IMG/VR virus record: IMGVR_UViG_3300027193_000023
Coordinates: 1 to 34,613 of that record
From: a virus
Lineage: Duplodnaviria > Caudoviricetes
Length of the DNA: 34,613 nt
Reading direction: 5' to 3' (one strand)
The notes beneath the pieces are model-generated. The model ran no database searches, was not told where the DNA came from, and saw only the letters and a list, made by a program, of their open reading frames with translations. This document shows, one piece after another, positions 1-34,613 of this stretch (the first letter of the stretch is position 1; each line of letters begins with the position of its first letter). The position numbers and the translations under genes are program-made.

Positions 1-1
1 C

Positions 2-106
2 GGCGAACGTCAAGCTGTTAACCAAGACGCTATCGTCAAGCTCATCGGTTTTGCCGGCAACCTCACATCTTCAGGCCCGCAATTCTGCGGCGTTCTGATC
101 GCTTAA
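2..106 (+). CDS. Major capsid protein, C-terminal fragment (redundant copy)
   Basis: Reads GERQAVNQDAIVKLIGFAGNLTSSGPQFCGVLIA*, identical to the end of ORF 32298..32996. Confidence 0.93.
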   Translation, partial: GERQAVNQDAIVKLIGFAGNLTSSGPQFCGVLIA

Positions 107-118
107 AAGGAAACCATC

Positions 119-652
119 ATGGCATATACATTTGACGAACCCCGTTTGGGACTTCAGCAAATTGCTGAAATTAACGACACAGTAGTTACCGCAGGTGGAA
201 CAACTATTGTTGCCCCGCCAGCAGTATTGGGTAGCATTGTTCGTGCGTTTGACCCAATTTTTGGTGAAGGCGAGTTTATCTTGTTGCTAGGTGTTGCAAG
301 CACTGTTGTTGGTTCTGTTGTGCGCTACAACGCTACAACTTACCAAACAACTTTGGTTGTTAACACCGCCGTTCAAGACGTACCTGTTGCAGTCGCTATG
401 TCGGCTTGCACAGCGGGTCTTTATGGTTGGTATCAAATCGCTGGTAATGCAGTCATCAAGAAAACTGCTGTGACCGTTGCACCTAACGTCACTCTGTTCT
501 TGTCGGCTACAGCTGGTCGTGTGAAAGTCTTGGCGTCTGCCGGTCTGCAAGTTGTTGCTGCTCGTTCAGCCAACTTGACTACCGTTACCTCTACGACTTC
601 AACTATTACCGTTACCATCAACCGTCCACATCTCCAGTCACAGATTACCTAA
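119..652 (+). CDS. Putative capsid decoration/cement protein (allele 1)
   Basis: 177 aa, Thr/Val/Ala-rich and beta-like, immediately after the major capsid gene, preceded by AAGGA. Function inferred from position. Confidence 0.6.
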   Translation: MAYTFDEPRLGLQQIAEINDTVVTAGGTTIVAPPAVLGSIVRAFDPIFGEGEFILLLGVASTVVGSVVRYNATTYQTTLVVNTAVQDVPVAVAMSACTAGLYGWYQIAGNAVIKKTAVTVAPNVTLFLSATAGRVKVLASAGLQVVAARSANLTTVTSTTSTITVTINRPHLQSQIT

Positions 653-1420
653 ATGATTGAAGCTGTACTTGATGTTGTAGGGAACACAAAGCCTGACGTT
701 TTGTTGGGCAATGTGCAGCGATCCGTAAAAAGGTCGCTGCCTTGGTTTGATTTTGACGAGTCACCCCAAGGCAGCGTCTGTCTTGTTGGTGGTGGGCCAA
801 GTCTGGTTGACACGATTGACCAGTTAAAAGTCCGTCATCAAAACGGCGCAAAAGTATGGGCAATGAACGGCTCTTACGATCATTTGCAAAGCCAAGGCAT
901 TATCCCTGATGTAATGGTGATGCTTGACGCTCGACCAGAGAACGTGAGATTTGTTCAGAATCCACAGCAATCGACTACGTTTTACATTACTAGCCAATGC
1001 GACGATGCAGTATTTGATGCGTTGGAAGGGTACAAAGTGGTGCTAGTTCACGCCAATACGCCTGGCGTTTATGAATTGCTTGAGCATGAAAAGGCTCGAC
1101 CAGTTCATCTGATGGGCGGGTTTACAACTGTTGGCATCTTGTCGTTGATATTGGCTAAGTTGCAGGGGTTTCAGCGCATCTTTATGTTTGGCATGGATTC
1201 AAGTTACCGAAACGGCGAACACCATGCTTACAAGCAAGAAAGTAATGACGCAGAACGTGTAATTGACGCTATGATTAACGATGTGACGTATAAGTGTGCG
1301 CCGTGGATGGCACAACAGGTAACAGATTTTCAGAATGTCGTAGCAGGCTTTGGTGATGTTACGATTGAAGTATGTGGCGATGGACTTTTGCACGAAATGG
1401 CAAAAGCGATGAGTAACTAA
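653..1420 (+). CDS. Maf/MptE-like (DUF115, CstII-sialyltransferase-like fold) putative glycosyltransferase
   Basis: Family-typical motifs VCLVGGGPSL, VWAMN, PDVMVMLD, TTVG and GFQRIFMFGMDSSY. Confidence 0.75.
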   Translation: MIEAVLDVVGNTKPDVLLGNVQRSVKRSLPWFDFDESPQGSVCLVGGGPSLVDTIDQLKVRHQNGAKVWAMNGSYDHLQSQGIIPDVMVMLDARPENVRFVQNPQQSTTFYITSQCDDAVFDALEGYKVVLVHANTPGVYELLEHEKARPVHLMGGFTTVGILSLILAKLQGFQRIFMFGMDSSYRNGEHHAYKQESNDAERVIDAMINDVTYKCAPWMAQQVTDFQNVVAGFGDVTIEVCGDGLLHEMAKAMSN

Positions 1421-1435
1421 ACTTTAAGGATTATC

Positions 1436-1798
1436 ATGGCATTTCCATCTAGAATTATGGGCGCTGGCAATTCGTCGTTAACTGCACAAGTAATCTGTGG
1501 CGAAGGCGCTGTCGGCCTAGTCGCTACTGGCACAACCGCAGCAGATGCTTTGCAGCTAAACGTATCAAACAACACGATTACGACTTCAGCAGCATCAACT
1601 GGCGTTAAGTTGCCACCTTGCGAAACTGGCGCTGAAATGATTATTCGTAATGATTCGGGTCAGACAATTACCGTCTATCCTTACAATACAAGCACTACAA
1701 TGAACGCAGCTGCCGCAAGTGTTACGCTTGCAAACGCTAAAACAATGTTGGTAAAAGCAACTTCCGCAACTACATGGGTAACATTAACAGGGGCTTAA
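1436..1798 (+). CDS. Small Thr/Ala-rich putative virion protein
   Basis: 120 aa, SD AAGGA, in the structural operon; GVKLP...IRNDSGQTITVYP...TW pattern of small beta-rich virion domains. Confidence 0.55.
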   Translation: MAFPSRIMGAGNSSLTAQVICGEGAVGLVATGTTAADALQLNVSNNTITTSAASTGVKLPPCETGAEMIIRNDSGQTITVYPYNTSTTMNAAAASVTLANAKTMLVKATSATTWVTLTGA

Positions 1799-17179: not shown

Positions 17180-17227
17180 TAGTCATGGCATACCCGCCAT
17201 GAACAACGATAAAAGGTACATAAATGA
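17163..17227 (+). repeat. Duplicated promoter/leader unit, copy 1
   Basis: Shares GCTTAATAT, the ATGGC-N6-GCCAT hairpin and the identical 22-mer ACGATAAAAGGTACATAAATGA with 19241..19305. Confidence 0.9.
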
Positions 17228-17787
17228 AAGAATTAGCAAAAGCACTTGTTACGGCTCAGGCAGCAATGTCCCACGCAGCTAAAGACTCCAAAAATCCCCA
17301 TTTTAAATCTGCATACTCTAGCTTGGCGAGTGTGATTGACGCTGTGCGGCCTGCTTTGTCGGCTAACGGTTTAGCTTTTGTGCAGATGTTGCATACAGCA
17401 GACGGTGGCGTAGCAGTCGAAACAGTTTTAATCCATGAGTCTGGTGAGCAGTTGTCTTGCGGCACGTTGTTTATTCCTGCTAGTAAGCAAGATGCTCAAG
17501 GCTATGGTTCAGCGATTTCGTATGCAAAACGCTACAGTTTACAAAGTGCGCTTGGCATAGCGTCAGAGGATGACGATGGCAACTCAGCGGTTAAATCAGC
17601 GCCTCCAAAGGTTGAGAAACCCAAAGGCATAGATATGGATGCAACGGTTGACCAAATGGCGGCAGCGGTCAGCTATGAAAGCCTGAAGGACATATTTAGA
17701 CTGGCTTGGACACAATGCCTGAAAGAACAACAACCCGTCTTGAAAGCAATGTATGACGGAATTAAAGCAAACTGGGAGAACCAATAA
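17224..17787 (+). CDS. erf: ERF-family single-strand annealing protein
   Basis: KDSKNPHFKSAYSSL, IHESGE, AQGYGSAISYAKRYSLQSALGIASEDDDGN (ERF motif). Confidence 0.92.
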   Translation: MKELAKALVTAQAAMSHAAKDSKNPHFKSAYSSLASVIDAVRPALSANGLAFVQMLHTADGGVAVETVLIHESGEQLSCGTLFIPASKQDAQGYGSAISYAKRYSLQSALGIASEDDDGNSAVKSAPPKVEKPKGIDMDATVDQMAAAVSYESLKDIFRLAWTQCLKEQQPVLKAMYDGIKANWENQ

Positions 17788-18239
17788 TGGCTTCAGATTT
17801 AAATCGTTGTGAGTTTATTGGCAGATTAGGTAAAGACCCTGAAATGCGTTATTCAGCGGATGGCAACGCTATTTGTAATTTGTCACTTGGCGTTAATTTT
17901 GAATATAAAAACAAAGCTGGTGAACCACAAAAAACGGTGACTTGGGTAAGAATTAGTGCGTATAGTCATTTGGCTGGCATTTGTGGGGATTACCTTAAAA
18001 AAGGTTCTCAAATTTATATTTCGGGGAAATGGGTTACTCGCAAATGGGTCAACAAAGACGGAGTTGATCAATACACAACTGAAGTGGTTGCTGACCAGAT
18101 GCAAATGCTCGGTGGTCGGCCTGCGGAGGATGCGCCTGCACCAGCTGCGCCTGCAAAACCAAAGTCTGACGCATACCGACAGATTAAAGAGGGGATTGTC
18201 GTGCCTCTTGATGAAATGATTGACGATGTGCCGTTTTGA
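17787..18239 (+). CDS. ssb: Single-stranded DNA-binding protein
   Basis: LNRCEFIGRLGKDPEMRY, YLKKGSQIYISG, YTTEVVADQMQML and acidic DDVPF tail. Confidence 0.95.
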   Translation: MASDLNRCEFIGRLGKDPEMRYSADGNAICNLSLGVNFEYKNKAGEPQKTVTWVRISAYSHLAGICGDYLKKGSQIYISGKWVTRKWVNKDGVDQYTTEVVADQMQMLGGRPAEDAPAPAAPAKPKSDAYRQIKEGIVVPLDEMIDDVPF

Positions 18240-18382
18240 TGAGTCAGTCAGAGGAGGCAATTTTAATATCTTGGCGATTGCAACAATGGTACGAAGGTAT
18301 GGTTTTAGACGCTAGAGCCATGCAAGACTTACAGGATGCAATCGAGATGCTTAAAACTTTAGCTAAACAGGTGCAAAAATGA
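18239..18382 (+). CDS. 47-aa hypothetical protein (not in ORF track)
   Basis: MSQSEEAILISWRLQQWYEGMVLDARAMQDLQDAIEMLKTLAKQVQK*; TGATG and ATGA overlaps on either side. Confidence 0.65.
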   Translation: MSQSEEAILISWRLQQWYEGMVLDARAMQDLQDAIEMLKTLAKQVQK

Positions 18383-19113
18383 TTATTAAATCAGCAGATT
18401 CAGAATCAGGCCATTGGTACGCAGCTGACGGTTCACCAGCGTACAAGATCATTGGTAAGAACGGCAAAGAACGCAACACAACGGTTCGTGACGCAAGGGA
18501 ACTTGGTTTAAAGCCTAGCGTGACAACCATTCTTGGAATTATTGGTAAGCCTGGCTTAAACACTTGGCTGCAACAACAGGTCTTACTGGCTGCGCTGACG
18601 TTGCCACGCATTGCTGGCGAAACAGAGGAAAACTGGTTAGAACGGGTAATGACTGATTCTAAGTCTACGGGCCGTGACGCTATGGATCGTGGCACACAGA
18701 TGCACGGCGTTTTGGAACGGTTTTATCGTGGCGAACAAGACGATTACCCTGTTTATGTTAACCAGGTTGATGCGGCAATCAGAATCCACTTTGGGCATGA
18801 CCAGACTTGGGAGGCAGAACGCTCGTTTGCATACGAAGGCTTTGGCGGCAAGGTGGATTTGATTGCTGAAAACATTGTGATCGACTTTAAGAGCAAAGAT
18901 AAGCTCGACAAAGTTGTGCCGTATCACGAACAACTTATGCAATTGGCCGCCTACCGTGTCGGTCTTGGCAAGCCCACAGCCAGATGCGCCAATGTGTTCT
19001 TTACTGCTGAAGGCGATGTGAAACTTATCGAACACTCGGAGGAAGATTTAGCCTCTGCGTGGGATTGCTTTCAGTATTTATTAGCGTTCTATAAGCGTAA
19101 AAACAACCTATAA
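18379..19113 (+). CDS. PD-(D/E)XK exonuclease
   Basis: PSVTTIL, RGTQMH, AERSF, GGKVDL, VIDFKS, QLAAY motifs. Confidence 0.88.
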   Translation: MIIKSADSESGHWYAADGSPAYKIIGKNGKERNTTVRDARELGLKPSVTTILGIIGKPGLNTWLQQQVLLAALTLPRIAGETEENWLERVMTDSKSTGRDAMDRGTQMHGVLERFYRGEQDDYPVYVNQVDAAIRIHFGHDQTWEAERSFAYEGFGGKVDLIAENIVIDFKSKDKLDKVVPYHEQLMQLAAYRVGLGKPTARCANVFFTAEGDVKLIEHSEEDLASAWDCFQYLLAFYKRKNNL

Positions 19114-22461: not shown

Positions 22462-22818
22462 ATGGATTATCCCGCCGTATTTGTTGCAACCTTGTTCCAT
22501 TCAGGCACAAATGCTCACTTTATGCATTTGCAGACGGACAGTTACGCCAAGCACGTTGCGCTAGGTGAATATTATGATGGCATTATTGATTTGGTGGACA
22601 AGTGGGCCGAGGCGTATCAAGGCGCTTACTCAATCATCAAGAGTTACCCCAAAGACTTTCATTTAGCCACCGATCCCGTCAAATACATCACAGGTGTAAA
22701 AGCGTTTGTTAAAGACATTCGTGACGAACTGCCTAAAGACTCAGAGCTACAAAATATTGTGGACGAGATTGCCGATCTGATTGATTCAACCCTTTATAAG
22801 CTAAAGGCGTTCAAATGA
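22462..22818 (+). CDS. Ferritin/Dps-like four-helix protein (DUF5856-like)
   Basis: HFMHLQTDSYAKHVALGEYYD, DKWAEAYQG, LQNIVDEI...TLYKL. Confidence 0.72.
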   Translation: MDYPAVFVATLFHSGTNAHFMHLQTDSYAKHVALGEYYDGIIDLVDKWAEAYQGAYSIIKSYPKDFHLATDPVKYITGVKAFVKDIRDELPKDSELQNIVDEIADLIDSTLYKLKAFK

Positions 22819-26274: not shown

Positions 26275-26582
26275 GCGGCGTACCACAACCTTATGAATAT
26301 CAATACGAACACGTTGCAGCAAGTCAGACCGCACAAGTTTTAGGCGGCACAGGCGCAGTTGGTGACTATTTACATCGTTTAATTTGTACTGTTGCCACAG
26401 CGGCAACAGGTGGCGTTACCATCGTCGATGGCTCATTCTCGCACGTTCTTTTGCCAGCAGTAGCGGGAACAGGCGTTAACGTCTACAACATTGAAGTAAA
26501 CGCTATTTCTCGTAGCGGGCCGTGGAAGGTCACAACTGGCGCAGGCGTAGAAGTAATAGCTGTTGGCATTTTCAGCGCATGA
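26271..26582 (+). CDS. Small beta-rich hypothetical (possibly virion) protein
   Basis: 103 aa, ATGA overlaps on both sides. Confidence 0.6.
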   Translation: MSGVPQPYEYQYEHVAASQTAQVLGGTGAVGDYLHRLICTVATAATGGVTIVDGSFSHVLLPAVAGTGVNVYNIEVNAISRSGPWKVTTGAGVEVIAVGIFSA

Positions 26583-27169
26583 TCGTAGCGAGCGTATTGC
26601 GGTCAGGCGGTGATTTTAAGCCTGAACACGTCTATGCGCTGCAAAAGATGTGCGCTAAGTATCTGCCACCGCATGAGTTTGTGTGCCTGTCAGACGTTGA
26701 TCTAAAGTGCAAAACCATCCCTTTGATGCATGACTGGGTTGGTTGGTGGGCAAAGATGGAGTTGTTTCGGCTACCAAGTGCGCTGTACTTTGATCTTGAT
26801 ACGGTGCTAACTGGTGACTGTACGGTAATGATCGAGGCGGCAAAACAGCACGATTTTGTGATTATGCGTGACGTTTATCGGGGTCAATACAACCCAAAAG
26901 CGATGCAGTCGAGCATGATGTATTGGTCGAAACCTGTTGATTTGTACGACAAGTTTGCCGCATTACAGATGTATACAGCGGGTGGCGACCAGGCTTACAT
27001 AGAACACTTTATGCGGGACAAAGTGACGTACTGGCAAGATATTTGTGATGGAATTGTGAGCTTCAAGGCTGATGTGCTGCCCAAAGGGGTAGACGATGCC
27101 AAGGTTGTGATCTTTCACGGTAAACCAAGACCGTGGGAACAAACAAGGATACCGTATGAAATTGGTTGA
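26579..27169 (+). CDS. GT-A fold glycosyltransferase (GT8-like)
   Basis: GWWAKMELF, YFDLD (DxD), GDQAYI, VIFHGKPRPW; start MIVASV at an ATGA overlap. Confidence 0.82.
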   Translation: MIVASVLRSGGDFKPEHVYALQKMCAKYLPPHEFVCLSDVDLKCKTIPLMHDWVGWWAKMELFRLPSALYFDLDTVLTGDCTVMIEAAKQHDFVIMRDVYRGQYNPKAMQSSMMYWSKPVDLYDKFAALQMYTAGGDQAYIEHFMRDKVTYWQDICDGIVSFKADVLPKGVDDAKVVIFHGKPRPWEQTRIPYEIG

Positions 27170-27767
27170 AGGTTGGCAAGTTCCTGACATAGACGAGTGT
27201 TGCATTAACGCACTCTTGGTTGAGCTGCCAGACTTAAATGTGAGTTATACCCACATGAACCAGTTCCGCACAGTCATTCAGGCCGGTGGCAATATCGGTG
27301 TTTATCCCGCTACGATGGCAGGGCAATTTGAGCGTGTGATTACAGTAGAGCCTGATTTAACCAATTACCAAGCGTTGCTGCTAAACGTTGCAGGCCATGA
27401 CAACATTGAGCATCATTGGGCTGCATTTGGTGACAAAATTGGCACAGCGTCAGTCGATCACCCATACCCTGAGAACATTGGGGCGCATCAGTTAAAGGCA
27501 GGCAACGATGTGCAAGTTATACCAATTGATGCTTTAGAGGTTGATGATTGCGACTTTATTCAGTTAGACATTGAAGGTTATGAGCATTTGGCTTTGCTTG
27601 GCGCAGAACGCACAATCAAAAAGACACACCCAGTTATCACGCTCGAGCTTAAAGGCTTGGGCAGTCGGTACGGGTACAGCGACGAGGACACAATCAACCT
27701 ACTCCAAGATTGGGGCTACGAGATTGTCGGGCGGGTAAACCGTGACGTAATTTTTGCGAGATACTAA
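27156..27767 (+). CDS. FkbM-family SAM-dependent methyltransferase
   Basis: VIQAGGNIG, TVEPD, DFIQLDIEGYE, GAERTIKKTHPVITLE. Confidence 0.88.
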   Translation: MKLVEGWQVPDIDECCINALLVELPDLNVSYTHMNQFRTVIQAGGNIGVYPATMAGQFERVITVEPDLTNYQALLLNVAGHDNIEHHWAAFGDKIGTASVDHPYPENIGAHQLKAGNDVQVIPIDALEVDDCDFIQLDIEGYEHLALLGAERTIKKTHPVITLELKGLGSRYGYSDEDTINLLQDWGYEIVGRVNRDVIFARY

Positions 27768-30793: not shown

Positions 30794-31714
30794 ATGCAAT
30801 TGGAAAATACTGAACAGCCAGATCGTCGAGAATTACTGTCACAGCAGTTCGATGAGGTTCAGAATGAAGCACCAGTCGAGGCAGTAAGGACGCAGGAACA
30901 ACCCAATCTTGAGCCACCGGCAGAGCCACCAGTTTGGGAAAGACCGCCGGCATCGTGGAAGAAGGATTATCACGAAGCCTGGACAACCGCTGATCCAAAG
31001 CTGAAAGAATACGCTTGGAAACGTGAAGAAGAAATGAGAGCAGGGGTTCAGCCTTTGCTTACTAAAGCTCAATATGCTGACCAAATGCAGCAAGCCATTG
31101 AGCCGTACATGAACAACATTCGTGGTTTAGGCATTGAAGCACCACAGGCTGTCAAAGCCTTGATGGAAGCTGATAACGTCTTGCGCCACGGTTCGCCACA
31201 ACAGAAACAAGCATATTTTGCCCAATTAGCCCAACAGTACGGGATCAACATGGGCGATGTGCAGATTCAACCTACTGATCCCAATTTTTACGCCATTCAA
31301 AACGAGCTTGCACAAGTTCGTGGCGAGGTGTTAAATTGGAAGCAAGCGCAGGAAAATGCACAGAATGAAGCACTTTTGAGCGAAATTAACCAGTTTCAAT
31401 CAAAAGCAGAGTATTTTGAGGAAGCTCGTCCAACAATGATCCAACTGCTTAACAGCGGTGTGGCGAAGGACTTGGATGATGCGTACCAAAAGGCAATACG
31501 CCTAGATAACGACCTGTTTACAAAACATCAGCAAGCCTCACAGGGTCAAGCAGATGCAGCGAAACGGGAAGCATCGAACAGAGCGGCGAAAGCAGCTAGG
31601 GCGGCAGCGGTCAGCGTTAAATCCTCGACACCAGGGGCGGCAACGAGTACCAAAGCGCAAGATAGGCGTTCATTATTGATGGAACAGTTTGACAATCTTA
31701 ATGAGCGTTTTTGA
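30794..31714 (+). CDS. Scaffolding protein
   Basis: Acidic and helical, PPASWKK motif, immediately upstream of the capsid gene. Confidence 0.75.
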   Translation: MQLENTEQPDRRELLSQQFDEVQNEAPVEAVRTQEQPNLEPPAEPPVWERPPASWKKDYHEAWTTADPKLKEYAWKREEEMRAGVQPLLTKAQYADQMQQAIEPYMNNIRGLGIEAPQAVKALMEADNVLRHGSPQQKQAYFAQLAQQYGINMGDVQIQPTDPNFYAIQNELAQVRGEVLNWKQAQENAQNEALLSEINQFQSKAEYFEEARPTMIQLLNSGVAKDLDDAYQKAIRLDNDLFTKHQQASQGQADAAKREASNRAAKAARAAAVSVKSSTPGAATSTKAQDRRSLLMEQFDNLNERF

Positions 31715-31734: not shown

Positions 31735-31982
31735 ATGGCATTTGCCAATAGCTCGATCAGCGACATCATTGCGACTAACATTCAAAGCCGCACGGGTGAA
31801 CTTGCTGACAACGTAACAAACAACAACGCTTTACTGCGCCGTTTGAAAGAACGTGGCAACGTAAAGACGTTTTCTGGCGGTAACGTGATTTTGCAAGAGA
31901 TCATGTACAACGACGCTGCAACTGACAACACTAATAGCTATTCAGGCTATGAAGTTTTAAATGTTTCGCAAAACAGTCCCAT
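31735..31982 (+). CDS. Major capsid protein, exon 1
   Basis: GGAG SD; MAFANSSISDIIAT...LADNVTNNNALL...YSGYEVLNVSQNSP(I); the unspliced frame stops at 32019 inside the intron. Confidence 0.9.
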
Positions 31983-32242
31983 TGACGAATTAGTGGCCTT
32001 GCAGAGTAATCTGCATTGAATAACTTTGTGAATTCGGTGAAACTCTGACCATTAAGTTGAAGACAATACCGAGCCAAGCCCAGAGATGGGAAGGTGTAAC
32101 GACTAGGGTGTGACTACCCGTAGAGCCAAGTGGCTCGAAGTGCAAAGAACCCTACGGGGTTGTGAGATAGTCTGCTCTGCATAGAAATATGCAGCAGTCC
32201 GAAAGGGCGGCAAGAAATTAACGACTTCTTGTGAACATTTGG
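31983..32242 (+). ncRNA. Group I self-splicing intron, 260 nt, ORF-less, IA-like (P7.1/P7.2 present)
   Basis: P1 with U31982.G31993; P3 CUUUGU/GCAAAG; P4 UUCGGU/ACCGAG; P7 GACUA(32101)/UAGUC(32168); P8 with UACG loop; P9 with GAAA loop; terminal G32242; excision restores the frame. Confidence 0.93.
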
Positions 32243-32996
32243 TAGTGGGGCACAGTTTTCGATCACCCAGTACGCTGCTGCGATTTCAATCAGCGGTTTG
32301 GAAATGATCCAAAACAGCGGTAAAGAAGCAATCATCGACTTGCTAGATGGTCGTATGAGCGTGGCTGAAGCACAATTGGCGAACCGTATTTCGGGTGACA
32401 TTTACCTAGACGGTACTGGTAACTCAGGCAAGAACATCACAGGCCTCGGCGCTGCTGTTCCTGACGCACCAAGCACCGGCACATACGGCGGCATCAATCG
32501 TGTATCGTTCTCGTTCTGGCGTTCGGCTAAGTTCTCAGGCGTGACAGATGGCGGCTCGGCTACATCAGCATCAAACATCCAGTCGTACATGGATGCTCTT
32601 GCTGTTCAGCTGATTCGTGGAACTGACAAACCTGATCTGATCGTTTGCGACAACAACTATTACAAGCTGTATTTGCAATCGTTGCAGTCAATCCAACGTA
32701 TTTCAGACGGTGGCAATTCGGCAGTTGGCGCAGGCTTTGCATCGTTGAAATACTACGGCGCTGGTATGGCATCAGATGTGATCTTAGACGGTGGTATCGG
32801 TAACGATGCAACTGCCAATCATATGTGGTTTTTGAACACCAAATACATGATGTTCCGTCCACACGCTGATCGTAATTTCGTGCCAATCGGCGGCGAACGT
32901 CAAGCTGTTAACCAAGACGCTATCGTCAAGCTCATCGGTTTTGCCGGCAACCTCACATCTTCAGGCCCGCAATTCTGCGGCGTTCTGATCGCTTAA
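32243..32996 (+). CDS. Major capsid protein, exon 2
   Basis: The frame is open upstream of the tracked TTG: (I)SGAQFSITQYAAAISISGLEMIQNSG...; 248+754 nt = 1002 nt = 333 aa plus stop. Confidence 0.9.
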
Positions 32997-33007
32997 AGGA
33001 AACCATC

Positions 33008-33541
33008 ATGGCATATACATTTGACGAACCTCGGATCGGGGTTTTAAATATCGATCAAACGGACTCTGGTGTTACAACCGCAGGCGGCACGACTATTCCT
33101 ACGCCCCCAGCTGTTCTCGGCACTATTGTTCGTGCATTTGATCCAACCTACGGCGAGGGTGAGTTCATCCTGTTGTTAGGCGTGGCATCAACTGTTGTTG
33201 GTTCTGTTGTGCGCTACAACGCTACAACTTACCAAACAACTTTGGTTGTCAACACCGCCGTTCAAGACGTACCTGTCGCAGTCGCTATGTCGGCTTGCAC
33301 AGCGGGTCTTTATGGTTGGTATCAAATTGCTGGTAATGCAGTCATCAAGAAAACAGCCGTTACCGTTGCACCTAACGTTACTCTGTTCTTGTCGGCTACT
33401 GCTGGTCGTGTGAAAGTCTTGGCATCTGCCGGTTTGCAAGTTGTTGCTGCTCGTTCAGCAAACTTGACCACCGTCACTTCTACGACTTCAACCATTACCG
33501 TGACAATTAACCGTCCACATCTCCAGTCACAGATCACCTAA
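33008..33541 (+). CDS. Putative capsid decoration protein (allele 2)
   Basis: Identical to 119..652 except for 16 substitutions in residues 10-48. Confidence 0.6.
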   Translation: MAYTFDEPRIGVLNIDQTDSGVTTAGGTTIPTPPAVLGTIVRAFDPTYGEGEFILLLGVASTVVGSVVRYNATTYQTTLVVNTAVQDVPVAVAMSACTAGLYGWYQIAGNAVIKKTAVTVAPNVTLFLSATAGRVKVLASAGLQVVAARSANLTTVTSTTSTITVTINRPHLQSQIT

Positions 33542-34309
33542 ATGATTGAAGCTGTACTTGATGTTGTAGGGAACACAGAGCCTGACGTTTTGTTGGGCAA
33601 TGTGCAGCGATCCGTAAAAAGATCGCTGCCTTGGTTTGATTTTGACGAGTCACCCCAAGGCAGCGTCTGTCTTGTTGGTGGTGGGCCAAGTCTGGTTGAC
33701 ACGATTGACCAGTTAAAAGCCCGTCATCAAAACGGCGCAAAAGTATGGGCAATGAACGGTTCTTACGATCATTTGCAAAGCCAAGGCATTATCCCTGACG
33801 TAATGGTGATGCTTGACGCTCGACCAGAGAACGTGAGATTTGTTCAGAATCCACAACAATCGACTACGTTTTACATCACTAGCCAATGCAACGATGCAGT
33901 ATTTGATGCGTTGGAAGGTTTCAAAGTGGTGCTAGTTCACGCCAATACGCCTGGCGTTTATGAGTTGCTCGAGCATGAAAAGGCTCGACCAGTTCATCTG
34001 ATGGGCGGGTTTACAACTGTTGGCATTTTGTCGTTGATATTGGCTAAGTTGCAAGGGTTTCAGCGCATCTTTATGTTTGGCATGGATTCAAGTTATCGCA
34101 ATGGCGAACACCATGCTTACAAACAAGAAAGTAATGACGCAGAACGTGTAATTGACGCTATGATTAACGATGTGACGTACAAATGTGCGCCGTGGATGGC
34201 ACAACAGGTAACGGATTTTCAGAATGTCGTAGCAGGCTTTGGTGATGTTACGATTGAAGTATGTGGCGATGGACTTTTGCACGAAATGGCAAAAGCGATG
34301 AGTAACTAA
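33542..34309 (+). CDS. Maf/MptE-like putative glycosyltransferase (allele 2)
   Basis: Four amino-acid differences from 653..1420. Confidence 0.75.
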   Translation: MIEAVLDVVGNTEPDVLLGNVQRSVKRSLPWFDFDESPQGSVCLVGGGPSLVDTIDQLKARHQNGAKVWAMNGSYDHLQSQGIIPDVMVMLDARPENVRFVQNPQQSTTFYITSQCNDAVFDALEGFKVVLVHANTPGVYELLEHEKARPVHLMGGFTTVGILSLILAKLQGFQRIFMFGMDSSYRNGEHHAYKQESNDAERVIDAMINDVTYKCAPWMAQQVTDFQNVVAGFGDVTIEVCGDGLLHEMAKAMSN

Positions 34310-34324
34310 ACTTTAAGGACTATC

Positions 34325-34613
34325 ATGGCATTTCCATCAAGAATTATGGGCGCAGGCAATTCATCGTTAACGGCTCAAGTAATCTGTGGCGAAGGCGCTG
34401 TCGGCCTAGTCGCTACTGGCACAACCGCAGCAGATGCTTTGCAGTTGAACGTGTCAAACAACACGATTACAACTTCAGCAGCATCGACTGGCGTTAAGTT
34501 GCCACCTTGCGAAACTGGCGCTGAAATGATTATTCGTAATGATTCGGGTCAGACAATTACCGTCTATCCTTACAATACAAGCACTACAATGAACGCAGCT
34601 GCCGCAAGTGTTA
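34325..34613 (+). CDS. Small Thr/Ala-rich virion protein, truncated by the window end
   Basis: Copy of the 5' part of 1436..1798. Confidence 0.7.
   Translation, partial: MAFPSRIMGAGNSSLTAQVICGEGAVGLVATGTTAADALQLNVSNNTITTSAASTGVKLPPCETGAEMIIRNDSGQTITVYPYNTSTTMNAAAASV

What the first reader, a model, noticed from the sequence alone, without database searches (positions are those of the whole stretch)
31983..32242. ORF-less group I intron interrupts the major capsid gene
Seen: the capsid frame is broken by 260 nt that folds into a complete group I core. P1 is CCAU^UGA-CGAA-UUAGUGG with the U.G wobble at the 5' splice site; P2 is UGCAG/CUGCA; P3 pairs 32024-29 with 32142-47; P4 pairs 32033-38 with 32068-73; P7 is GACUA/UAGUC with J8/7 GUGAGA; P7.1 and P7.2 hairpins are present; P8 has a cUACGg loop; P9 and P9.1 have GAAA loops; the last base is G32242; P10 is UAGU/AUUA. 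Splicing gives ...NSP-I-SGAQF... and a 333-aa protein, whereas the unspliced RNA stops after 94 aa. Established: classic phage group I introns lie mostly in DNA-metabolism, terminase or lysin genes and often carry homing endonucleases. Inference: synthesis of the most abundant virion protein in this small podophage depends on ribozyme splicing, which could act as a GTP/Mg2+-sensitive checkpoint on particle production.
Basis: partly seen in the sequence, partly recalled or inferred. Interest (0 to 1): 0.88.

Follow-up and report, generated by a model that had tools for sequence, protein, structure and literature searches.

The report
Self-splicing intron in phage capsid gene
A 260-base group I intron with no gene of its own breaks the main coat-protein gene of a small aquatic phage and likely cuts itself out of the RNA; capsid introns are already known, but in this phage family the coat gene carries such inserts at eleven different places, and close relatives differ in whether they have this one.

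Summary
Confirmed. [quoted passage not shown] Every helix named is present, and 7 pairs change on both sides among 17 same-site copies. Removal gives a 333-aa major capsid protein, 2 residues different from an intronless relative. Splicing is inferred: no spliced junction appeared in six RNA runs.

The checkpoint idea is poorly supported. 75 of 79 close capsid genes lack the intron, and its presence changes at least 9 times on the exon tree. All copies are 258-261 nt and no endonuclease gene lies next to the capsid gene, so it likely spreads by recombination.

Capsid introns are published (LittleE, crAss-like phages), and this scan has noted them on other DNA. What is added: this capsid family has inserts at 11 sites, and a sister ORF-less insert sits at 4 different sites, each after exon CCU, a possible trace of reverse splicing. 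New member of a known kind.

The parts
31735..31982 (+). Exon 1 of the major capsid protein gene (codons 1-82 and two bases of Ile83)
   Evidence: phrog_9953 positions 4-78, E 2e-16; 93-100% identical to the start of intronless relatives
31983..32242 (+). ORF-less group I intron, 260 nt, IA2-like anatomy (P7.1 and P7.2)
   Evidence: RF00028 62.8 bits, E 8e-14; exact 260-nt gap against intronless alleles; covariation
31979..31996 (+). P1 helix with the U31982.G31993 wobble at the 5' splice site; guide sequence 31989-31996
   Evidence: the four exon-guide pairs never vary in 17 of 17 copies
32017..32019 (+). In-frame TGA that would stop ribosomes before the core; unspliced product 94 aa
   Evidence: an in-frame stop lies before P3 in 17 of 17 copies, and 3 copies that lost this TGA carry an earlier TAG
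32024..32147 (+). Core: P3 (32024-29/32142-47), P4-P5-P6, 5' strand of P7, P7.1, P7.2
   Evidence: two-sided changes in P5 and P7.1
32099..32173 (+). P7 with the predicted guanosine-binding pair G32101-C32172 and bulged C32100
   Evidence: invariant in 17 of 17; role assigned from established group I structure (recalled)
32174..32242 (+). P9.0, P9, P9.1, P9.2 and terminal G32242
   Evidence: two distant relatives (L178, L181) have a fully paired P9.0 with other letters (read by eye)
32243..32996 (+). Exon 2 (last base of Ile83, codons 84-333, stop); its first four bases form P10
   Evidence: phrog_9953 positions 84-328, E 7e-79; 50% identical to the Myxococcus phage Mx8 major head protein
30794..31714 (+). 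Upstream gene, likely the scaffold protein; ends 20 nt before the capsid start
   Evidence: position between portal and capsid; no family hit; function inferred
33008..33541 (+). Downstream virion structural gene; starts 11 nt after the capsid stop, leaving no room for an endonuclease gene
   Evidence: phrog_29386
17224..19113 (+). ERF annealing protein, SSB and PD-(D/E)XK exonuclease: candidate recombination system for exchange of the intron (inferred)
   Evidence: PF04404, PF00436, PF12705; phrog_2324, phrog_298

Best explanation
[quoted passage not shown] Shown: anatomy, reading-frame restoration, covariation, patchy presence. Inferred from established group I chemistry: free guanosine bound in P7 attacks after U31982, the freed exon attacks after G32242 guided by P10, and the joined mRNA gives the 333-aa capsid protein; the in-frame stop before P3 would keep ribosomes out of the core. 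Because the gene is essential, selection keeps the ribozyme and the exon bases it pairs with intact. Gain and loss likely occur at DNA level during co-infection, as a block with a few flanking exon bases, plausibly through the phage's own ERF/exonuclease system (inferred); no endonuclease that would drive it was found.
For: RF00028 62.8 bits. 98.0% of 1326 cells paired, 7 pairs with two-sided change, 0 of 500 shuffles as high, slid controls 35-42% paired. Loop swaps UNCG/GNRA in P8. Stop before P3 in 17 of 17, with a TGA-to-TAG swap in 3. Exon bases in P1/P10 (CCAT|TAGT) in 20 of 20 distinct intron-bearing alleles but 3 of 71 intronless ones. 4 of 79 close loci carry it. Presence needs 11 changes on an 85-row exon tree, 9 forced by starred branches, one clade in 0 of 200 bootstrap trees. 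Window and L014 share the intron letter for letter while 130 of 1002 exon bases differ. The window's nearest exon relatives are intronless and carry another junction haplotype; 0 of 71 intronless alleles have the 14-nt junction that precise loss from most carriers would leave. All 48 locus-level hits at this site are 258-261 nt; no gene between scaffold and capsid or between capsid and the next gene where visible among 22 carrier loci.
Against: Splicing was not observed. Six RNA runs gave no joint 31982-32243; the joints seen belong to intronless alleles, and run X15 holds contigs bridging both unspliced junctions of a carrier allele at depth 44-61. These are contigs and the library may hold DNA, so this does not measure splicing. 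Intron and exon divergence correlate (Spearman 0.75, 120 pairs) and carriers are somewhat clustered (2 of 500 shuffles as low), so much of the history is vertical. The covariation counts are not independent events (related sequences). The role of ERF is untested. Unrooted change counts cannot separate gain from loss.
Confidence: 0.72

Rival explanations
1. Same intron, but spread by endonuclease drive in trans: collaborative homing by a free-standing nuclease elsewhere in the genome or in a co-infecting phage, co-conversion from the GIY-YIG intron at codon 27, or a lost or unsampled endonuclease-bearing form.
For: Identical introns in exons 13% apart. Carrier alleles share third positions near the site (0.90 at codons 81-85, 0.72-0.76 at 86-100, against 0.43-0.49 among intronless alleles), as co-conversion would give. 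The codon-27 intron 170 nt upstream encodes GIY-YIG (PF01541, E 6.6e-6) and co-occurs in L143 and L315. Collaborative homing is described (PMC3984707, passages).
Against: No endonuclease gene beside the capsid gene; no long form among 48 hits from 5' and 3' junction and core patterns. The window's nucleases are ordinary replication types (PF16786, PF01870). Control: 15 intronless alleles picked by an unrelated local haplotype show a similar peak (0.81, 0.75; far 0.56), so the peak is not specific to homing. Only 4 of 79 close alleles carry it.
Confidence: 0.15
2. One reading: splicing is a GTP/Mg2+-sensitive checkpoint that holds back capsid synthesis and is kept because it helps the phage.
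For: The gene is essential and the unspliced RNA gives 94 aa. Environmental sensing by phage introns is a standing, unproven hypothesis (PMC11878797, introduction read). Unspliced carrier contigs occur in one RNA run.
Against: 75 of 79 close alleles lack it, including proteins 2-3 residues from the window's; 9-11 gains or losses; 11 different sites in the family; no aptamer match. Group I affinity for guanosine is usually well below cellular GTP levels (recalled, not checked).
Confidence: 0.07
3. The ribozyme has decayed or needs a protein helper, so the strain makes little capsid protein by itself.
For: C.A mismatch in P9.0; no spliced junction seen.
Against: The mismatch is shared by 17 of 17 copies and the core helices are fully paired in all; identical introns occur in other contigs (L001, L014, L283).
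Confidence: 0.05
4. Assembly artefact.
For: The window's two ends overlap at only 93.7% identity, so the assembly mixes strains.
Against: The same insert at the same base in 20 distinct alleles, and run contigs that bridge its junctions.
Confidence: 0.01

Closest known systems
Mycobacteriophage LittleE capsid intron, BAKA/Optimus tail intron, and Tuc2009 capsid intron (PMC3706429; passages read)
   Same: Group I-type intron in a major capsid gene (LittleE, splicing shown by RT-PCR and protein sequencing); ORF-less 265-nt intron in a structural gene (BAKA); U before and G at the end.
   Different: LittleE's intron is about 820 nt and holds an endonuclease; siphoviruses of Gram-positive hosts; single sites. 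Here an ORF-less intron in an Mx8-like, likely podoviral gene with many sites.
crAss-like phages, Delta and Zeta groups (PMC7886860; passages read)
   Same: Group I introns in the MCP gene, one gene in five pieces. A 67%-identical stretch lies in crAss-like phage cr116_1.
   Different: Large gut phages; introns found through their endonuclease domains. Here a 33-kb aquatic phage and no ORF.
Staphylococcus phage Twort orf142 (as described in PMC10136302; passages read; the 1999 original not read)
   Same: Several group I introns in one gene, two highly similar and of subgroup IA2; precedent for the look-alike inserts at several sites.
   Different: Three introns in one genome; here 11 sites across a population, and look-alike copies at four sites.
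IA2-type phage introns in terminase and DNA polymerase genes (Aeromonas phiA009 terminase 77% over 60% of the intron; Pseudomonas KIL, Vibrio helene, Ralstonia BOESR1); T4 td as prototype (recalled)
   Same: Core sequence and P7.1/P7.2 layout.
   Different: Other host genes; no record among 50,697 phage records exceeds 67% identity over 80% or more of the intron (2 records, one phage).
ORF-less introns moved by collaborative homing (cyanophage psbA; PMC3984707, passages read)
   Same: ORF-less intron present in some alleles only.
   Different: No free-standing endonuclease was found beside this gene.

Membership tests
Group I intron | Match to RF00028 above the gathering score | tested here: met
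   62.8 against 50 bits, E 8e-14; same-site copies 56-68 bits
Group I intron | Core P3-P7-P8 and P4-P5-P6 with G-binding pair in P7 | tested here: met
   P3, P4, P6, P7 never vary (so they give no covariation), P5 and P8 change on both sides
Group I intron | U.G pair in P1 at the 5' splice site, terminal G, P10 | tested here: met
   P10 G.U becomes G-C in 5 of 17 copies
Group I intron | Removal restores the host gene exactly | tested here: met
   333 aa, 331 of 333 identical to intronless L002; contiguous in 75 of 79 loci
Group I intron | Guanosine-dependent self-splicing | not testable with these tools
   needs an in vitro assay
Group I intron | Spliced junction in RNA | tested here: inconclusive
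   not seen in 6 RNA runs, contigs only
Subgroup IA2 | P7.1 and P7.2 between P7 and P3, bulged C in P7, short P5 (definition recalled) | tested here: met
   P7.1 has two pairs with two-sided change
Subgroup IA2 | Best score against the subgroup covariance models | not testable with these tools
   no subgroup models are held; PMC11878797 calls IA2 heterogeneous
Mobile (homing) group I intron | Endonuclease ORF in a loop | tested here: not met
   stops in all six frames; all 48 hits 258-261 nt
Collaborative homing pair | Free-standing endonuclease gene beside the host gene | tested here: not met
   23-29 nt from scaffold end to capsid start, next gene 12-15 nt after the stop, wherever visible among 22 loci; a distant nuclease is not excluded
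Allosteric (riboswitch-controlled) group I intron | Ligand-binding aptamer next to the intron | tested here: not met
   no other Rfam match in the window at E<=1; unknown aptamers would be missed
Major capsid protein (Mx8-like) | Profile match and gene order portal-scaffold-capsid | tested here: met
   phrog_9953, phrog_12082; 50% to Mx8 major head protein
Major capsid protein (Mx8-like) | HK97 fold | tested here: inconclusive
   model pLDDT 37; PDB 7f38 putative major capsid only at E 0.026

The most novel reading that the evidence does not exclude
The capsid mRNA of this phage family is a landing strip for ORF-less group I introns that reach new sites by reverse splicing and then spread between strains by recombination alone. 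The sister insert found at codons 53, 62, 151 and 280, always after exon CCU matching its own guide, only in this gene (27 of 27 contigs) and with up to 100% identity over its first 130 nt between sites, would be a recent natural record of that pathway, for which the 2014 review reports no direct evidence. The window's intron, with a 79% relative at codon 49, would be an older case of the same process.
Probability: 0.2. Interest if true: 0.72.

Novelty: new member of a known kind. Interest (0 to 1): 0.36.

Why it matters
Practically, gene callers split this capsid gene into a 94-aa and a 232-aa ORF, and Rfam misses several of the family's other inserts (19-35 bits), so capsid-based surveys of these common lake and coastal phages will misannotate carriers. 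Scientifically, the intron itself is ordinary, but the family offers a compact system for two open questions: how introns without an endonuclease persist and spread, and how they reach new sites. Near-identical alleles with and without the intron exist in nature, which makes the checkpoint idea and the drive idea directly testable.

Tried and rejected
Spliced junction in metatranscriptomes: six RNA runs (X15-X20) and one DNA run (X7) laid; all joints carry the letters of intronless alleles. One 156-nt contig in X20 ends exactly at G32242, as a freed linear intron would; one contig in one study, not counted as evidence. Endonuclease-bearing form at this site: 5' junction, core and 3' junction patterns in IMG/VR and one metagenome scan (42 of 64 parts read) found none; of 18 hits only 6 and of 120 only 11 were relevant, the rest chance. 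The first core pattern had too long a gap and missed this intron type; it found other introns. Local exon similarity as proof of homing: rejected by the haplotype control. Degradation-tag tail on the unspliced product (lead e1-5838823): 14 of 17 copies end NLH, 3 end VAL, and other sites end in LH, FH, NV, GL, IA or QW; none ends in the ssrA-like LAA (motif recalled). Core-less mini-introns (lead e1-9718420): no insert under 150 nt that splits the tblastn match in 215 capsid loci. Structure prediction failed (pLDDT 37), so no fold search was run. Promoter and terminator scan: no more than shuffles. Host: 18 GTDB contigs, 17 from MAGs of many phyla and likely mis-binned phage; one isolate, a Pandoraea iniqua locus at 71%; none has an intron; host unknown. 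A pair count on the wider alignment A1 was not completed.

Full report
Setting. The window is a complete IMG/VR virus record. Its first 1724 bases repeat its last ones at 93.7% identity, so the genome is likely about 32.9 kb and circular, assembled from mixed strains. Terminase, portal (phrog_12082), capsid (phrog_9953), tail and ejection genes and 50% identity of exon 2 to the Mx8 major head protein fit an Mx8-like podophage (morphology inferred). Runs that hold half or more of the gene's words are labelled marine, lake, freshwater, drinking water or plain metagenome. The host is unknown. There is one full capsid gene.

Observation. Rfam RF00028 matches 31971-32194 at 62.8 bits, E 8e-14. Removing 31983-32242 gives 333 aa; the unspliced frame ends after 94. 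Of the 80 closest IMG/VR loci (best 80 of 592 confirmed), 79 show exon 1: 75 are contiguous across the site and 4 have a gap of exactly 260 nt; one of the 4 (L001) is identical to the window and may be the same population. The joined protein differs from intronless L002 at 2 residues.

Signs of selection for splicing. On 17 distinct same-site copies, 98.0% of cells pair; 7 of 78 pairs change on both sides (P2, P5, two in P7.1, two in P8, P9.2); 0 of 500 shuffles reach this, and slid controls pair 35-42%. The sequences are related and the structure was drawn on one of them, so this is support, not a probability. An in-frame stop precedes P3 in 17 of 17 copies; three copies lost the TGA and have an earlier TAG, in line with the known rule that such stops keep ribosomes out of the core (PMC3073962, passages). 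The exon bases used by P1 and P10 are fixed in 20 of 20 distinct carriers but occur together in 3 of 71 intronless alleles (alleles under 75% identity, with gaps or without cover at the site were left out; carriers were sought on purpose, so 20:71 is not a prevalence). Shared descent also contributes to this.

RNA. Six RNA runs and one DNA run were laid, all as contigs. No joint 31982-32243 was found; joints carry intronless letters. Run X15 has contigs over both unspliced junctions of a carrier allele, which may be precursor RNA or DNA. Splicing therefore remains inferred.

How it moves. All 48 locus-level hits at this site (redundant) are 258-261 nt and no endonuclease gene flanks the capsid gene. 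On a tree of 85 exon rows without codons 71-105 (16 carriers, 69 not), presence needs 11 changes, 9 of them forced. The window and L014 share the intron exactly while 130 of 1002 exon bases differ. The window's nearest exon relatives (2.8-3.6% apart) are intronless and differ from it at several silent bases around the junction, so gain or loss swapped a block of DNA rather than removing the intron precisely. Against a purely lateral history: intron and exon distances correlate (0.75) and carriers cluster somewhat (2 of 500 shuffles). The local similarity peak around the site is also seen for an unrelated haplotype among intronless alleles, so it does not show homing. The phage encodes ERF, SSB and an exonuclease; ordinary recombination in a mosaic population is the simplest account (inferred).

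The family is an intron hotspot. Inserts with U before and G at the end, whose removal restores the frame, sit at or after codons 13, 27, 49, 53, 62, 69, 72, 83, 151, 280 and 309. Those at 13, 49, 69 and 83 pass the Rfam cut-off; 72 scores 46.7 and 27 scores 27-35 bits; a model built here also finds them. The codon-27 insert encodes GIY-YIG; the codon-13 insert has an antisense ORF with a weak HNH match (E 0.049). The inserts at 53, 62, 151, 280 and 309 are a second type, with GACUA/UAGUC and similar helices by eye but Rfam scores of 22 bits or less, or no match; they are group I-like, not confirmed. One sub-family of 231-238 nt was found in 27 IMG/VR contigs (19 at codon 53, 5 at 151, 4 at 280, one contig with two) and two metagenome contigs (151, 62), always in this gene and after CCT wherever the 5' exon is visible. 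Of 13 copies compared, those at 53 and 151 are 80-94% identical and up to 100% over the first 130 nt. This fits transposition to guide-matched sites by reverse splicing, for which PMC3984707 (passages) reports no direct evidence; but DNA insertion filtered by selection, and conversion between introns, fit too, and the search pattern itself selected 27 shared bases.

Comparison with the known. Capsid introns are published for LittleE (spliced), Tuc2009 and crAss-like phages; ORF-less structural-gene introns for BAKA; similar IA2 introns in one gene for Twort orf142 (passages only). I found no paper on introns in this capsid family in eight searches; supplements were not read, and Supplementary Table S1 of PMC11878797 (over 100 phage introns) may list further capsid cases. 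The scan's own notes hold at least eight other capsid-intron findings; these are unchecked and are not counted as support.

Verdict. Real feature, correctly delimited. It is a group I intron by every test that could be run, IA2-like by anatomy, and not a homing or riboswitch intron by the tests run. Most likely a neutral or slightly costly passenger exchanged by recombination (0.72); drive in trans 0.15; checkpoint 0.07. New member of a known kind; interest 0.36, mostly for the family-wide hotspot and the sister insert.

Noticed in passing
L462, L464, L483 (codon 53); L289 (codon 62); L246, L480 (codon 151); L474, L483 (codon 280): One ORF-less 231-238-nt group I-like insert at four different sites of this capsid gene, always after exon CCT; 27 of 27 IMG/VR contigs with its pattern have it in this gene, one contig twice. 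Rfam scores it at 22 bits or less.
   Followed up: partly
L056:1133-1829 and relatives: About 700-nt group I intron after codon 27 with a GIY-YIG ORF; in 10 of 79 close loci, commoner than the window's intron.
   Followed up: partly
L100:1364-2232, L101: Group I intron after codon 13 with a 191-aa HNH-like ORF on the opposite strand, 5' of the core.
   Followed up: partly
L107, L128, L142, L150, L178, L120, L175, L295: Further ORF-less inserts at codons 49, 69, 72 and 309; several genes hold two or three introns (L113, L128, L142, L143, L175, L246, L289).
   Followed up: partly
L321:297-575 (minus strand): The 3' two-thirds of the window-type intron with capsid exon 2 is joined to the 5' part of another intron that follows a terminase-like frame (read by eye): assembly chimera or recombination between introns.
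   Followed up: no
window 1-1724 and 32892-34613: End overlap at 93.7% identity, with most differences in the first 200 bases of the gene after the capsid: two alleles of that gene in one assembly.
   Followed up: partly
window 32247-32249: Gly85 in the capsid protein where 90 of 91 distinct alleles have Ala or Ser; it lies just past P10.
   Followed up: no
window 33542-34309 and 653-1420; 26522-27767; 22462-22818: MptE-like gene (PF01973) two genes after the capsid, an FkbM methyltransferase with an unnamed neighbour before the portal, and a Dps-like gene (phrog_858): possible auxiliary genes.
   Followed up: no
run X20, contig 32087-32242: An RNA-run contig lies wholly inside the intron and ends exactly at the terminal G; single case.
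   Followed up: no
L490:1501-1657 (Aeromonas phage phiA009) and phages KIL1-5, helene 12B3, eugene 12A10: Related intron cores in cultured phages; in phiA009 the terminase gene is annotated as two ORFs with no intron.
   Followed up: partly
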